Source of the DNA: Promethearchaeota archaeon
GTDB lineage: Archaea > Asgardarchaeota > Lokiarchaeia > Sigyniarchaeales > Promethearchaeaceae
Length of the DNA: 32,000 bases
Direction of reading: 5' to 3'
NCBI GenBank assembly: GCA_016933055.1
Contig: JAFGBS010000004.1
Coordinates: 330,001 to 362,000 of the forward strand
Below, piece after piece: positions 23,439 to 27,660 of the stretch (position 1 is its first letter; each line of letters starts with the position of its first letter). The notes beneath the pieces are model-generated. The model was not told the DNA's origin, did no database searches, and was given only the letters and a program-made list of their open reading frames with translations. The position numbers were made by a program, and so were the translations under genes.

Positions 23439-24950
23439 TTATGCTCGTTTTCGAGCAAATAGAGCAATCATTAAGATGCCTGCTACCGCGAACACTCCAC
23501 CGCCAATGGGTAGATAAAGTTCTAGGTCATCTAATGCACCTTTAATATCTGTTCCCCAGATAGGGAGCTCTGGAAGCATGTCGTATTCTGCACCTAACAC
23601 AAAAATTGTATCGGATCGCCAGGTTTCTAAGTAATTACAGATCAAATCCACTTTTAAGTCCGTAGATAGACCAAGGTCTTCCTGAAGTTCATCAAATTCT
23701 GGTCCATAGCGGTTATCCACTGCAGCATACCATTTCTTTAAACCCTCATCATCTGTAAGTGAGTTCCATACAGCTAATGCTGTGTCAGAATCGAGGATTT
23801 CACCAGGAGGCAAATCAATTTCAAACCCGGGTGCAAGAGGTTCATCCTGTAGGAATCCGATATCCATCCACTGACCTAACAACATGCGAAGATAGACATC
23901 GTTAGCCGGAAAACCAAAATTGGCTGCAACTCCTGCTTGGACTGTCGGTTCAACAGTATCTAACCAAGTTCTGATATCAGTATACTGATCTCCAACTAAA
24001 GTTAATTCAGTGGTTAAGGTAGATTGCTGGTTATTAAACCATTTATCCAAGTCGTCCGTATCTGTAACAGACGCCCATACGGCTTCTACTTGTGCAAGAT
24101 CAGTAAAATCGGTTCCCACTTCAAAATTAGTTGCAAGGGGATCTAATGTACCTAATCCAGCTGGAATCAAGGCCTTTTCTGCCCATTGGACTAAGATATA
24201 TTTCTCAGCAGTAGCTGCAGTTGCTGGAGGAACTGCCCATCCTACTTGACTACCGATTGCATAGGGGACAAAATTGAATAACTCTGTTGTAATCCAACCA
24301 GCAACCAAATCCAGATGAGTCCCAGAAGCAAGTCCATATCCTACCGTAGCTAAGGTTGGAACATCAGGAAATCCTGCACTTGAAGGATTTGCATACACAC
24401 CTAAGAACGCTAGCATACCGGGAGTGCCATCTCCTAATGGATCCGGTTCTAAGAATCCAGGTAATCCAAGACTTGAACCTTGGGTTAAATTAATAGCATC
24501 ATTTAATGTATAAGTTAACGGTACACCAGCCCATTCTATTACACCTTTTATTGGAGTTGTATAAAAAGCTTGAATGGTATCATTAAATACACCCCAAGTT
24601 GCGAACAATGGATTTCCATAATAAGTCGGTACCGCACCTGCCAAATTTCCTATCACTTGCCCTACGACTTGCATGCTAGTCGAACCATTCACAAACAGCG
24701 CAAGATTTCCTGGACCGCCGAAGGCACCAACCATTGCATCCTTAACACCAGATAAGAAGTCTGCATAGGCACCTTTCTTTATTTCAGGAATAGCCATTTC
24801 CTCAATCATATTAAATGCTTCACCCACATAGGGCTCAATGAGGAAAGTGTTAACGCCAACGCGACCCCCTACTCCTGCTGTTATAATAATTGCGCCGAGA
24901 AACAAGACAATGGATCCTGTTATCACGCCGCCAATTCCTTTTTTAGCCAT
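23439..24950 (-). CDS. Hypothetical acidic surface protein with N- and C-terminal TM anchors and internal repeats of about 104 aa
   Basis: TM at about aa 6-28 and 480-498. Repeated blocks QW...FE(V/I)...AVWxS(V/L)TD...LxKW at about aa 252-330 and 356-441. Confidence 0.8.
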   Translation of the reverse strand: MAKKGIGGVITGSIVLFLGAIIITAGVGGRVGVNTFLIEPYVGEAFNMIEEMAIPEIKKGAYADFLSGVKDAMVGAFGGPGNLALFVNGSTSMQVVGQVIGNLAGAVPTYYGNPLFATWGVFNDTIQAFYTTPIKGVIEWAGVPLTYTLNDAINLTQGSSLGLPGFLEPDPLGDGTPGMLAFLGVYANPSSAGFPDVPTLATVGYGLASGTHLDLVAGWITTELFNFVPYAIGSQVGWAVPPATAATAEKYILVQWAEKALIPAGLGTLDPLATNFEVGTDFTDLAQVEAVWASVTDTDDLDKWFNNQQSTLTTELTLVGDQYTDIRTWLDTVEPTVQAGVAANFGFPANDVYLRMLLGQWMDIGFLQDEPLAPGFEIDLPPGEILDSDTALAVWNSLTDDEGLKKWYAAVDNRYGPEFDELQEDLGLSTDLKVDLICNYLETWRSDTIFVLGAEYDMLPELPIWGTDIKGALDDLELYLPIGGGVFAVAGILMIALFARKRA

Positions 24951-25136: not shown

Positions 25137-26033
25137 TTAAGGGAGATCCTCCCCTTCTGAGGGAGGTTTCTCATCGGTAGATTCTTCTATTTCGGTAAAT
25201 TCTGAGACCATATCCAATATTGAGAATTTTTTCATTTCCAGAACGGTTTTCTTTCGTTTTTTTAGCCATTGGTTCCACGTAATAGGTGTGGTTGTTTTTA
25301 ATATGGCATTCACTGAAATTACCATAGGCGTAATGATGAATCCTAACGCCAGTAAATTTAGGAAAAAGAATGCTATCACAGCCCCTATGGATATATAGTA
25401 GTACCCAATGGGTGCCCCCGCTTTAAAATCAAAAAGGTATACCCCTAAACGGATATATAGAATAGTCCCCGTGAGAATGACAATACCCACAGATGCAGTT
25501 ACGATCAAGAAAACCTTCTTGGTCAAACTTGCAAACACTAACGCAATTGTGAATATACCTGCCAGTATAATAAAGACTACAATATTTTGCTGAATCCAAG
25601 CAGAATATGCAGATTCACTGATAACTAGTAGTGAATATCCCGGAACTCGATTCCAAGCAATTATGCGCAACAGCATAATGTACCCCACGCCTAATCCCAC
25701 AAATAATCCGAAAAGTAAAAACAAAAATATTACGTATTGTGGGTCCCTATCTATTTTCTCCACTTCTTCAAACCTAGTGTTCAAATAGGTCTCAATAAAC
25801 TGAGTAATATTACTAGGCGTATTACTATCTACAGTATGGAAGGAATATTGCGGAAATTTCTTGAGTACTAAACTCAAAGACTCGTGTGCTTGTTTTTTAG
25901 CGTTCAAAGTAGCACGATTTCCCTCCCACACATAAATCTTTTTTGCATCTGATACAAGACAAATTGCAATATCATGAGGATAAATATTGTCGCTTTCTAA
26001 CCATTTATCCGTTTCAAATACGTATAATTTCAT
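25137..26033 (-). CDS. Gelsolin-like domain fused to four TM helices (298 aa)
   Basis: An AGGA-rich SD precedes ATG26033. The N-terminus HDIAICLVSDAKKIYVWEGNRATLNAKKQA matches the gelsolin pattern D-x(3-4)-hydrophobic strand...IYxWxG...(A/S)(S/T)xxxK..A. TMs at about aa 100-122, 151-170, 174-194 and 214-241; basic then acidic C-tail. Confidence 0.75.
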   Translation of the reverse strand: MKLYVFETDKWLESDNIYPHDIAICLVSDAKKIYVWEGNRATLNAKKQAHESLSLVLKKFPQYSFHTVDSNTPSNITQFIETYLNTRFEEVEKIDRDPQYVIFLFLLFGLFVGLGVGYIMLLRIIAWNRVPGYSLLVISESAYSAWIQQNIVVFIILAGIFTIALVFASLTKKVFLIVTASVGIVILTGTILYIRLGVYLFDFKAGAPIGYYYISIGAVIAFFFLNLLALGFIITPMVISVNAILKTTTPITWNQWLKKRKKTVLEMKKFSILDMVSEFTEIEESTDEKPPSEGEDLP

Positions 26034-26820
26034 TTTCCTTTCCTTGTGGTTTTTTTGCACTTAAGAAGAAATCTTCCACACATTCGAGTTCATGTAGTAT
26101 AGACGTTGGGGAATATTTATCAAATTGCCCATTAGATTTTTGAAGTTTCTCTATAATGTTTTCGATAGTGATCGGTTGAATTTGCTCGAAATAAGTTCCT
26201 AATAAATTAACGAATTCGAGTTTGTTACTGTGTTTTCTTAAAATGGAGATCCCTACTGTTCCTAAATCTTGAATTGTTCTAAAAAATTGGTATATTGCTG
26301 ATTCTGTATTTTTAATGTTCTGAAATACTGTAAAAGCTATTAAGGTGAGGTAGAACTTATTTCGAAATGGGAGGTGAGAACAGTCACAGGCTACCAAACC
26401 ACGTAAAGCAGTGTCATTTCGCAGGCTCCTTGCATGTAATAACATATTGAATGAAATATCACAAATTATCATCAAGTTATGCACAAGCGATACTGGTTTA
26501 ATCCCTGTAATTCGCATAATGTAATACGAGGTGAATTCGAGTATCTTGCGTATTTTTTCGTCTTTAACATATTCTCCCCTCCAATATAATGATAGTAAAT
26601 CGAGAAATTCCAAAAATAATCCTGTCCCTCCCCCCACATCTAAAATAGGCCCTTTAATTTCGACACTAGGTAAAGATGGGATGTGGATCAGTTTGGGTAA
26701 CATGATACCGTACTTTAAAAATTGAATAATTTGATAACGCGAATTGTAATAAATTGCGCTTTCATCATAGGCATCTCGAATTTTTTCCTCTTTTGATAAA
26801 TGCGGTTTGGGGGATTTCAT
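26014..26820 (-). CDS. Class I SAM-dependent methyltransferase
   Basis: YD...YY.RY..IQ..KY N-terminal block, motif I ILDVGGGTG, CDISFNML and CDCSHLPFR. The stop overlaps the next gene's start by 20 nt. Confidence 0.85.
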   Translation of the reverse strand: MKSPKPHLSKEEKIRDAYDESAIYYNSRYQIIQFLKYGIMLPKLIHIPSLPSVEIKGPILDVGGGTGLFLEFLDLLSLYWRGEYVKDEKIRKILEFTSYYIMRITGIKPVSLVHNLMIICDISFNMLLHARSLRNDTALRGLVACDCSHLPFRNKFYLTLIAFTVFQNIKNTESAIYQFFRTIQDLGTVGISILRKHSNKLEFVNLLGTYFEQIQPITIENIIEKLQKSNGQFDKYSPTSILHELECVEDFFLSAKKPQGKENEIIRI

Positions 26821-26930: not shown

Positions 26931-27167
26931 ATGTCAATAGATCCAAAAAATCCACTTAAAGTCCTTCATAATGCTATAAATTCCACCATCCTCATTCGAT
27001 TAAAGGATGGGATCGAATATACTGGTAGACTAAAGGTTTGCGACAATTACATGAACATGATTATTGAAGATGCAAAAGAAATGTTAGATGGAACCGTTAC
27101 TGCGAAATTCGGAGAGATTTTTATCCGTGGTAATAACATCTTATTCATAAAACCCCAAGCGGTATAA
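26931..27167 (+). CDS. Sm-like archaeal protein (Lsm/SmAP)
   Basis: GAGGT SD; Sm1 motif G-L---DNYMN and Sm2 motif IFIRGNNI. Confidence 0.96.
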   Translation: MSIDPKNPLKVLHNAINSTILIRLKDGIEYTGRLKVCDNYMNMIIEDAKEMLDGTVTAKFGEIFIRGNNILFIKPQAV

Positions 27168-27198
27168 TTTCACCCTATTAAACTGGGTGTGTATTCTA

Positions 27199-27660
27199 AT
27201 GAAGATTTTTGGGTACGGCACTTTCATCACCAGTGGTATATATCGCAAGTTTACAAAAGTTCGCTCCGCCTATCTTCTTGGATATGCTCGAATACTTAGA
27301 CCGGGAGACCTGTTCCCCTTTATTTTGCAGAAAACGCCAGAAAATCCAAATAACTCGACAGAAACGGGGAACTCGGGATTTTGGGGGTTAGTATTTGATG
27401 TCAGCCCAGAGAGATTGGAAGAGCTTGATTTTTACGAAGGGTCATTATATACTCGTATTCAAGTCAAATGTATGTATTTGGATGGAGAAACCGATGAAGT
27501 AATGGTCTACTATCCGACTGAAGAAATAATAGAACTCTACAATTTAAGAAACTACATTACGAATGATGATCCTTGGCGGGATAAAATCGTTCATAACCAT
27601 CCCGCAATTATTGAGCAGTTTCCCGAATTAGCACGATCTGAACCTCCGGGTACTTTCTAA
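27199..27660 (+). CDS. Gamma-glutamylcyclotransferase / AIG2-like protein
   Basis: IFGYGT motif and LDFYEG catalytic-Glu motif. ATG27199 is preferred over GTG27187. Confidence 0.85.
   Translation: MKIFGYGTFITSGIYRKFTKVRSAYLLGYARILRPGDLFPFILQKTPENPNNSTETGNSGFWGLVFDVSPERLEELDFYEGSLYTRIQVKCMYLDGETDEVMVYYPTEEIIELYNLRNYITNDDPWRDKIVHNHPAIIEQFPELARSEPPGTF

What the first reader, a model, noticed from the sequence alone, without database searches (positions are those of the whole stretch)
25137..26033. Gelsolin-like domain fused to a four-helix membrane domain: candidate membrane anchor for the Asgard actin cytoskeleton
Seen: an ~85-aa N-terminal domain with the gelsolin core pattern (HD-IAICL..DAKKIYVWEG..AT...K.QA), then four TM helices and a cytoplasm-type C-tail with a Trp/basic patch (WNQWLKKRKKT) and an acidic end. 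An even TM count puts both termini on one side, and the basic residues after TM4 and in the TM2-3 loop favour the cytoplasm. Known: gelsolin/cofilin-like actin regulators are Asgard eukaryotic-signature proteins, the characterised ones I know of are soluble, and cultured Lokiarchaeia have actin filaments in membrane protrusions whose membrane attachment is unexplained. Inference: an integral-membrane actin capping, nucleating or tethering factor. The Glu that ligates Ca2+ on the long helix appears to be Ala, suggesting Ca-independence, and the basic tail could bind anionic lipids or actin. Alternative: a Sec23/24-like gelsolin fold used for another protein interaction.
Basis: partly seen in the sequence, partly recalled or inferred. 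Interest (0 to 1): 0.85.

Follow-up and report, generated by a model that had tools for sequence, protein, structure and literature searches.

The report
Membrane-anchored gelsolin-domain protein of Lokiarchaeia
This Asgard-archaeal gene joins a genuine gelsolin-type domain, the fold that regulates actin, to a four-helix membrane module, which makes it a testable but untested candidate for how these relatives of eukaryotes fasten their actin skeleton to the cell membrane.

Summary
Window 25137-26033 (minus strand) encodes a 298-aa protein. Residues 1-84 are a gelsolin-homology (GH) domain. A profile of 65 family N-domains hits only gelsolin-superfamily chains in the PDB, bar one marginal hit (villin 3e-18, gelsolin 1e-13, Thor ProGel 8e-8). 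The AF2 model's best structural matches are Thor ProGel and Loki 2DGel.

Residues 98-247 form a confidently modelled four-helix membrane bundle (pLDDT 96) with no recognisable relatives. Charge bias in 51 of 52 homologues puts the GH domain and the C-tail in the cytoplasm.

The full architecture is found in about 128 of 154 genomes of one Asgard order. These include Ca. Lokiarchaeum ossiferum (NEF87_002464, annotated "hypothetical protein"). I found it in no other order. The papers I could search do not describe it.

Actin binding is an inference from homology only. Gene neighbours are housekeeping genes, and the exposed face of the long helix is variable.

This scan had already noted the same family on other genomes, with the same reading. 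I rate it a new variant of a known kind, of considerable interest, with its function unproven.

The parts
25137..26033 (-). Whole gene, 298 codons plus TAA stop: GH domain + 4-TM module + cytoplasmic tail
   Evidence: ORF and translation. 13 close and more than 60 distant full-length homologues.
25782..26033 (-). Gelsolin-homology domain, residues 1-84 (strands 2-7, 10-13, 22-27, 32-37; long helix 43-59; strand 64-67; helix 74-84). It carries the W36-x-G38 signature, invariant D21 and G38, and E13 in 47 of 52.
   Evidence: Profile against PDB. Foldseek top hits are Thor ProGel 7c2f_B (TM 0.67 by target) and Loki 2DGel. VIA-align gives Z 9.3 to ProGel (81 aligned, rmsd 2.9) and Z 9.5 to adseverin. 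Column counts.
25743..25781 (-). Linker, residues 85-97 (acidic, then K-I-D-R-D). In the TM-module model, strand 94-96 lies next to strand 248-250, which follows TM4.
   Evidence: Models. K93 and R96 are conserved.
25656..25742 (-). TM helix 1 (residues 98-126), running from inside to outside; conserved W127 at its outer end
25521..25616 (-). TM helix 2 (residues 140-171), preceded by outer loop 127-139 with a short hairpin and followed by the cytoplasmic T-K-K turn
25434..25514 (-). TM helix 3 (residues 174-200). Its outer half carries the most conserved motif of the membrane module (G189, Y193, G197, F/Y199, L200, F201, F203).
25389..25433 (-). Outer loop 2 (residues 201-215) with a short beta-hairpin; conserved Y212 and I214
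25293..25388 (-). TM helix 4 (residues 216-247), running from outside to inside; conserved P236
25140..25292 (-). Cytoplasmic tail (residues 248-298): Trp/basic amphipathic helix at about 253-274, the conserved short motif K-K-F-S-I-L-D, then a disordered acidic end
   Evidence: Models. Tail comparison across the family.
26014..26820 (-). Upstream class-I SAM methyltransferase gene. Its stop overlaps the start of the GH-4TM gene by 20 nt, so co-transcription is probable. It is context only, not shown to be functionally linked.
   Evidence: The same pairing occurs in the same-genus genome (L006).

Best explanation
The gene encodes an integral membrane protein. Its cytoplasmic N-terminal head is a single, ProGel-like gelsolin-homology domain, held within about 13 residues of a four-helix membrane bundle. 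A basic amphipathic helix and an acidic tail with a conserved short motif follow on the same, cytoplasmic side. These points are shown: the domain identity, the topology, the conservation of the architecture across one Asgard order, and the loss of the type-II Ca2+ glutamate. The rest is inferred. The GH head would bind Lokiactin at the cleft between subdomains 1 and 3, as its nearest solved relatives ProGel and 2DGel D1 do. It would do so without Ca2+ control and probably with low intrinsic affinity. Permanent membrane anchoring, and possibly oligomerisation, would convert that weak binding into avid tethering of filament sides or barbed ends, or local capture of monomers, at the inner face of the membrane, for example in the actin-filled protrusions of Lokiarchaeia. 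The membrane module is more than a greasy anchor: its best-conserved residues lie at the outer ends of TM1 and TM3 and in outer loop 2, so it may also contact something outside the cell.
For: GH domain identity:
- The family profile hits almost only actin-binding gelsolin-superfamily chains (the close-homologue profile behaves the same way).
- Thirty of 65 members hit PF00626.
- The best fold matches are Thor ProGel, Loki/Thor/Heimdall 2DGel and eukaryotic gelsolins.
- The profile also matches this genome's own soluble GH proteins.

Nearest solved relatives:
- ProGel and 2DGel were crystallised bound to actin. ProGel lacks Ca2+ sites and binds weakly, on filament sides (PMC7444086).

Topology and membrane module:
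- There is no signal peptide, and K+R is higher on the inside in 51 of 52 homologues.
- The TM module is modelled at pLDDT 95.9 and pTM 0.87.

Distribution and conservation:
- The architecture is found in about 128 of 154 genomes of the order and in all 13 other genomes of the window's family, including Ca. L. ossiferum.
- This genome encodes Lokiactin.
- The GH domain is better conserved than the TM module (mean column identity 35% against 25%), as expected if its partner evolves slowly.

Published context:
- The preprint of the L. ossiferum Lokiactin co-IP study concedes under-representation of membrane proteins.
Against: - No binding evidence of any kind was obtained.
- The solvent-exposed face of the long helix (positions 44, 47, 48, 51, 54, 55, 58) is variable and charged across the family. 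The buried face (49, 53, 56, 60) is conserved. There is therefore no conserved hydrophobic plug of the G1 type.
- Gene neighbours are housekeeping genes (methyltransferase, TFB, Rio2 kinase, 2-oxoacid:ferredoxin oxidoreductase) and include no cytoskeletal genes.
- P0001 itself does not reach any Pfam Gelsolin threshold.
- The gelsolin fold is also used for non-actin contacts in Sec23/24.
- The family is absent from other actin-bearing Asgard orders, some of which also form protrusions.
Confidence: 0.5

Rival explanations
1. The gelsolin-fold head is a protein-interaction or regulatory domain for a partner other than actin, as in the gelsolin-like domain of Sec23/24. The protein would be a membrane adaptor or receptor unrelated to the cytoskeleton.
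For: The exposed face of the long helix is variable. No cytoskeletal neighbours are present. Pfam PF00626 also covers non-actin gelsolin-like domains (established knowledge). The Ca2+ site is lost.
Against: No Sec23/24 chain appears among 37 profile hits or the top 50 fold hits. Actin-binding gelsolins, villin, adseverin, CapG, severin, ProGel and 2DGel fill the lists. The nearest solved relatives were crystallised on actin.
Confidence: 0.3
2. The four-helix membrane module is the main functional unit, for example a small channel, a lipid- or surface-layer-binding receptor, or an adhesion or sensing module. The GH head couples it to, or gates it by, the actin cortex. In that case the protein is a transmembrane signal or force transducer rather than a passive anchor.
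For: The most conserved TM-module residues cluster on the outer side: W127, the G189-F203 motif, Y212 and I214. The module is modelled with very high confidence as a compact bundle with hairpins in both outer loops. In this genus a large surface protein gene lies directly downstream.
Against: No similarity to any channel, receptor or transporter family was found. The only structural matches are generic four-helix bundles. The surface-protein neighbour is not conserved beyond the genus.
Confidence: 0.15
3. Spurious ORF, or a chance resemblance to gelsolin.
For: P0001 alone gives no Pfam Gelsolin hit and only E 0.013 to Loki 2DGel.
Against: There are 76 clusters of homologues at 50% identity, most of them full length. 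Strong matches occur in about 128 genomes. Profile E-values go down to 3e-18. The models are confident.
Confidence: 0.01

Closest known systems
Thorarchaeota ProGel (PDB 7c2f chain B; Akil et al. 2020, PMC7444086)
   Same: It is a single gelsolin/cofilin-type domain of about 90 residues. It is the best single-domain sequence hit (35.6 bits, 7.8e-8) and the best Foldseek hit, with Z 9.3. It has the W-x-G signature and no Ca2+ sites.
   Different: ProGel is a free soluble protein. This protein is permanently fused to a four-helix membrane module and a cytoplasmic tail. Identity is only about 17-18%. Actin binding is shown for ProGel and not for this protein.
Asgard 1DGelX / GelX (one GH domain plus an unknown C-terminal domain X; PMC7444086, PMC13716822)
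   Same: Both have one N-terminal GH domain followed by a non-gelsolin C-terminal part. 1DGelX acts on actin without Ca2+ control.
   Different: Domain X is described as a predicted coiled-coil or disordered soluble domain. Here the C-terminal part is four TM helices. This genome has its own GelX-like proteins (L003, L004), which share a different C-terminal domain. I could not check whether any published '1DGelX' entry of Lokiarchaeia is in fact a member of this family.
Asgard 2DGel and eukaryotic gelsolin/villin/adseverin/CapG domains
   Same: They share the fold and sequence signature: E in strand 2, D at the start of the central strand, the hydrophobic-hydrophobic-D motif, W-x-G, and a small residue on the long helix.
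   Different: Those proteins have two to six domains, are soluble and are Ca2+-regulated through a type-II site. The helix Glu of that site is not conserved here. There is no inter-domain WH2-like linker.
Gelsolin-like domain of Sec23/Sec24 (COPII)
   Same: It uses the same fold class in a membrane-associated context.
   Different: It does not appear in the sequence-profile or fold-search lists here, and it is not an integral membrane protein.
Eukaryotic membrane-actin linkers (ERM proteins, talin/vinculin with integrins). This is a functional analogy only.
   Same: The proposed role, joining actin filaments to the plasma membrane, is the same.
   Different: These are unrelated folds. They are peripheral adaptors that bind separate TM proteins or lipids. 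Here the actin-type domain and the TM module form one polypeptide.

Membership tests
Gelsolin-homology domain superfamily (Pfam PF00626 type) | Significant sequence-profile similarity to known gelsolin domains | tested here: met
   The family profile A3 against the PDB gives villin 3e-18, gelsolin 1.4e-13, ProGel 7.8e-8 and Loki 2DGel 1.3e-6. Thirty of 65 members hit PF00626, best 2.9e-5. P0001 alone does not reach a Pfam threshold.
Gelsolin-homology domain superfamily (Pfam PF00626 type) | Fold: a central mixed beta-sheet packed against one long helix and one short helix | tested here: met
   AF2 model elements. Foldseek's top 30 are almost all gelsolin-family chains, and ProGel scores TM 0.67 by target. 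VIA-align Z is 8-9.5 over residues 1-88. Model confidence for this domain is only moderate (pLDDT about 57-80).
Gelsolin-homology domain superfamily (Pfam PF00626 type) | W-x-G signature after the central strand, and a conserved Asp at the strand start | tested here: met
   W36 is present in 40 of 52 (otherwise aromatic). G38 and D21 are present in 52 of 52.
Ca2+-regulated gelsolins (2DGel, eukaryotic gelsolin) | Type-II Ca2+ site: Asp at the strand start plus Glu seven residues after the W-x-G glycine | tested here: not met
   The Asp (D21) is kept, but position 45 is Ala in P0001 and reads K16 L6 E6 R6 A4 in the family. The register comes from the hmmsearch alignments to gelsolin G3.
Ca2+-regulated gelsolins (2DGel, eukaryotic gelsolin) | Two or more tandem GH domains | tested here: not met
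   There is a single GH domain; the rest of the protein is the TM module.
Asgard ProGel (single-domain gelsolin/cofilin prototype) | A stand-alone soluble protein consisting of the GH domain only | tested here: not met
   Four TM helices follow the GH domain in P0001 and in more than 50 homologues.
Actin-binding proteins (functional class) | Direct binding to actin or Lokiactin | not testable with these tools
No biochemical data exist for this family in the papers searched.
Integral membrane protein, N-in/C-in, four TM helices | Four hydrophobic helices of TM length, the positive-inside rule, and no signal peptide | tested here: met
   Helices 98-126, 140-171, 174-200 and 216-247. K+R in linker, loop 2-3 and tail exceeds the outer loops in 51 of 52 sequences. 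Experimental topology was not tested.

The most novel reading that the evidence does not exclude
This family is the direct, single-polypeptide link between Lokiactin filaments and the cell membrane in Lokiarchaeia. If so, it is the first integral-membrane gelsolin-domain protein known in any organism. Its conserved outward-facing patch would let it couple the actin cortex to the surface layer, to a partner cell or to a substrate. That would make it a primitive, integrin-like transmembrane adhesion and force link that predates eukaryotes. The conserved tail motif (K-K-F-S-I-L-D here; P-T-I-L-R-D-K in the L. ossiferum subfamily) loosely recalls the Asgard WH2-like L-K-D-V motif and could be a second actin contact.
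Probability: 0.3. Interest if true: 0.88.

Novelty: new variant of a known kind. Interest (0 to 1): 0.7.

Why it matters
Cultured Lokiarchaeia have actin-filled, rapidly remodelling protrusions and crawl in an actin-dependent way (PMC9834061, PMC13716822). The published lists of regulators contain only soluble gelsolins and profilins, plus BAR and Arf candidates. The preprint of the co-IP study concedes a bias against membrane proteins. How filaments are attached to the membrane is open.

A conserved integral-membrane protein with a gelsolin-type cytoplasmic head is a concrete, clonable candidate. A homologue in the cultured Ca. L. ossiferum (NEF87_002464) can be localised and pulled down.

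For eukaryogenesis, it would show that direct actin-membrane coupling existed in Asgard archaea in a form that eukaryotes do not use. If actin binding fails, the family still shows the gelsolin fold recruited to a membrane protein for another purpose.

Tried and rejected
1. Complex prediction of the GH domain (A3) with this genome's own Lokiactin (A6). 
2. The look-up of sequencing runs, for expression or occurrence of the gene.
3. Direct Pfam scan of P0001 and its first 100 residues. There was no Gelsolin hit, only noise. Homology needed family profiles.
4. Fold searches for the TM module (Foldseek PDB, VIA-align wide, AFDB clusters, ESM Atlas). Only generic four-helix bundles came up (de novo designs, chemoreceptor sensor domains, cytochrome oxidase subunit III helices). 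No family can be named, and this does not prove that the fold is new.
5. Gene neighbourhood in 12 loci. Neighbours are a methyltransferase, TFB, Rio2 kinase and 2-oxoacid:ferredoxin oxidoreductase subunits, with no cytoskeletal or trafficking genes. The genome's actin gene is about 55 kb away on the same contig.
6. Search for the architecture outside the order. Four genomes of other orders were inspected. Three matched the GH part only, as soluble gelsolins. The fourth, G058, is a truncated GH half joined to an EamA-type transporter behind an aminoacyl-tRNA-synthetase-like fragment. I read it as a rearrangement or assembly chimera, not a family member.
7. Literature. I found no paper describing a transmembrane gelsolin in Asgard archaea and none mentioning NEF87_002464. 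The supplement of PMC9834061 lists asCOG 'Gelsolin domain' groups shared by L. ossiferum and P. syntrophicum, but I could not tell whether one of them is this family. The Liu et al. 2021 paper was not held.
8. Sec23/24-type reading. No Sec23/24 chains appeared in any list. This lowers that reading but does not exclude it.

Full report
**The gene**

On the minus strand an ORF runs from ATG 26033 to TAA 25139-25137 and encodes 298 aa (P0001). A longer reading from GTG 26060 is possible on paper. However, all 13 close homologues start MKLYVFE, so ATG 26033 is the start. It lies 20 nt inside the end of an upstream methyltransferase gene (26014-26820, minus strand), which suggests co-transcription. 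The window is G000:C6:330001-362000 of a 3.76-Mb, 36-contig genome.

**The N-terminal domain is a gelsolin-homology (GH) domain**

- P0001 alone gives only hints: no Pfam Gelsolin hit, and E 0.013 to Loki 2DGel and 0.23 to Thor ProGel in the PDB.
- A profile of the first 98 residues of 13 close homologues (A2) lists 26 PDB hits. Twenty-four are gelsolin-superfamily chains, including villin at 9e-5 and ProGel at 2.3e-4.
- A profile of 65 diverse family N-domains (A3) gives villin 3e-18, horse and human gelsolin about 1e-13, ProGel 7.8e-8 and Loki 2DGel 1.3e-6. Adseverin, CapG and severin also appear. Thirty-six of 37 hits are gelsolin superfamily, and none is Sec23/24 or cofilin.
- Thirty of the 65 members hit Pfam PF00626 individually.
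- The AF2 model of the whole protein (14 sequences, pLDDT 70) shows strands 2-7, 10-13, 22-27 and 32-37, a long helix 43-59, strand 64-67 and helix 74-84.
- Foldseek ranks Thor ProGel first (TM 0.67 by target), then Loki and Thor 2DGel, then eukaryotic gelsolins.
- VIA-align gives Z 9.3 to ProGel (81 residues, rmsd 2.9) and Z 8-9.5 to gelsolin-family domains.
- Signature positions are conserved: D21 and G38 in 52 of 52, E13 in 47 of 52, W36 in 40 of 52, and W11 in 44 of 52.
- The family profile also matches this genome's own soluble GH proteins.

**Ca2+ site**

In gelsolin domains the type-II site uses the Asp at the start of the central strand and a Glu seven residues after the W-x-G glycine. 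That register comes from established knowledge of gelsolin and was checked on the alignments. D21 is invariant. Position 45 is Ala in P0001 and reads K16 L6 E6 R6 A4 across 52 family members. The canonical site is therefore not conserved, as in ProGel, which lacks Ca2+ sites (PMC7444086).

**Membrane module**

- With a 52-sequence alignment, residues 88-275 fold at pLDDT 95.9 and pTM 0.87.
- The model is an up-down four-helix bundle (98-126, 140-171, 174-200, 216-247) with short hairpins in both outer loops.
- A strand at 94-96 lies next to one at 248-250, and an amphipathic Trp/basic helix spans 253-274.
- K+R counts favour the linker, loop 2-3 and the tail over the two other loops in 51 of 52 sequences. 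There is no signal peptide.
- The GH head and the tail are therefore cytoplasmic.
- The best-conserved residues of the module (W127; G189, Y193, G197, F/Y199, L200, F201, F203; Y212, I214) lie at the outer ends of TM1 and TM3 and in outer loop 2. This argues that the module does more than anchor.
- No known family matches it.

**Tail**

Close homologues conserve T-T-T-P-I-S-W, a basic run and K-K-F-S-[IV]-L-D. The L. ossiferum subfamily conserves P-[ST]-I-L-R-D-K followed by V-E-L-K-E-I-E. The largest subfamily ends shortly after TM4 with Y-[KR]-x-[FY]-I-F. The I-L-R-D-K motif loosely recalls the Asgard WH2-like L-K-D-V motif, which is present in this genome's own 2DGel (PMC13716822 preprint). 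This is a lead, not a finding.

**Distribution**

- The exhaustive representative search finds 76 clusters at 50% identity. Most are 258-320 aa and match over both domains.
- P0001 was searched across 400 genomes of the phylum. It matches G000 and 127 other genomes, all in the window's own order (f1 13/13, f2 1/1, f3 110/135, f4 3/4), and none of the 246 genomes scored in other families.
- A full-length profile gives strong matches (E below 1e-28) in the same order only.
- Four genomes outside the order were inspected. Three matched only the GH part, as soluble gelsolins. The fourth (G058) matched a truncated GH half joined to an EamA-type transporter.
- The homologue in the 6.0-Mb closed genome is Ca. 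Lokiarchaeum ossiferum NEF87_002464 / UYP46179.1, annotated "hypothetical protein".
- A second closed genome in the same family carries a 281-aa homologue next to a TFB gene.

**Context**

Neighbours differ between subfamilies and are housekeeping genes: methyltransferase, TFB, Rio2 kinase and 2-oxoacid:ferredoxin oxidoreductase subunits. Lokiactin is encoded about 55 kb away on the same contig. The genome also has a 2DGel with a C-terminal zinc ribbon and two GelX-like proteins.

**Function**

The nearest solved relatives were crystallised on actin, in the cleft between subdomains 1 and 3. ProGel binds weakly (Kd about 337 uM) and bundles filaments from the side. A ProGel-like head fixed at the membrane would gain avidity and could tether filament sides or ends to the bilayer. 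I think this is the most likely role (about 0.5), but no step of actin binding is shown.

Three points count against it:
- The exposed face of the long helix is variable and charged, while the buried face is conserved.
- There is no genomic link to cytoskeletal genes.
- The family is absent from other actin-bearing Asgard orders.

**Literature**

Akil et al. 2020 and 2022 describe ProGel, 1DGelX and 2DGel, all soluble. The L. ossiferum motility study reports nine GH proteins, five of them in a Lokiactin co-IP. Its preprint notes under-representation of membrane proteins. No paper in the searchable library describes a transmembrane gelsolin in archaea or names NEF87_002464. asCOG tables list 'Gelsolin domain' groups that I could not resolve.

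**Earlier notes of this scan**

The same architecture was noted and followed up on several other genomes, with the same closest relative (ProGel) and the same reading. Those are unchecked AI notes, not independent evidence. My own tests agree with them.

**Verdict**

The structural interpretation is supported, and the actin-anchor function is plausible but unproven. This is a new variant of a known kind, a gelsolin-domain protein in an undescribed integral-membrane architecture. Its interest is high because it makes the question of actin-membrane attachment in Asgard archaea directly testable in a cultured species.

Noticed in passing
window 23439-24950 (-): A 503-aa protein sits directly downstream (186-nt gap). 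It has an N-terminal TM or signal anchor, a large Gly/Thr/Pro-rich ectodomain and a C-terminal TM segment with a faint PGF-CTERM-like hit. It is probably a cell-surface protein. It is conserved next to the GH-4TM gene only in the same genus (46% identity in L006).
   Followed up: partly
window 26014-26820 (-): A class-I SAM methyltransferase (Methyltransf_11, E 6e-5) overlaps the GH-4TM start by 20 nt. A homologous methyltransferase lies one gene away, on the opposite strand, in several loci of the large sister family (L008, L010-L012, L015).
   Followed up: partly
L024:652-1950 (-) (G058:C98): In a genome of another Asgard family, the C-terminal half of a family-type GH domain plus linker is joined in frame to a 10-TM EamA/DMT-type transporter. 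It is preceded by an aminoacyl-tRNA-synthetase-like fragment and stop codons. It looks like a rearrangement or an assembly chimera.
   Followed up: partly
L001:1465-2571 (+) (G000:C17): This genome's 2DGel (368 aa) carries the Asgard WH2-like L-K-D-V motif between its two GH domains and ends in a CxxC...CxxC zinc ribbon.
   Followed up: no
L003:1432-2403 (+) and L004:1006-1767 (-) (G000:C16, C17): Two GelX-like proteins (323 and 253 aa) each have one N-terminal GH domain and share a C-terminal domain with a G-[ST]-L-P-[EN]-G-[LF]-[FY]-F motif. One has a long Pro/Lys/Glu-rich repeat linker.
   Followed up: no
L027:1282-2145 (+) (G129:C16): In another order of the same class, a 287-aa protein combines an N-terminal CxxC...CxxC zinc ribbon, a GH domain, a Lys/Glu/Ala-rich coiled region and a C-terminal helix-hairpin-helix-like end.
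   Followed up: no
window 26931-27167 (+), 27187-27660 (+): An Sm/LSM protein (PF01423, 1.5e-22) is followed by a gamma-glutamyl cyclotransferase-like protein (GGACT, 5e-9). Both are divergent from the methyltransferase/GH-4TM pair.
   Followed up: no
family alignment A4 (tails): Three distinct C-terminal tail types mark subfamilies: K-K-F-S-I-L-D plus an acidic end; P-T-I-L-R-D-K plus V-E-L-K-E-I-E; and a short Y-K-x-F-I-F end. Several genomes carry two or more paralogues.
   Followed up: partly
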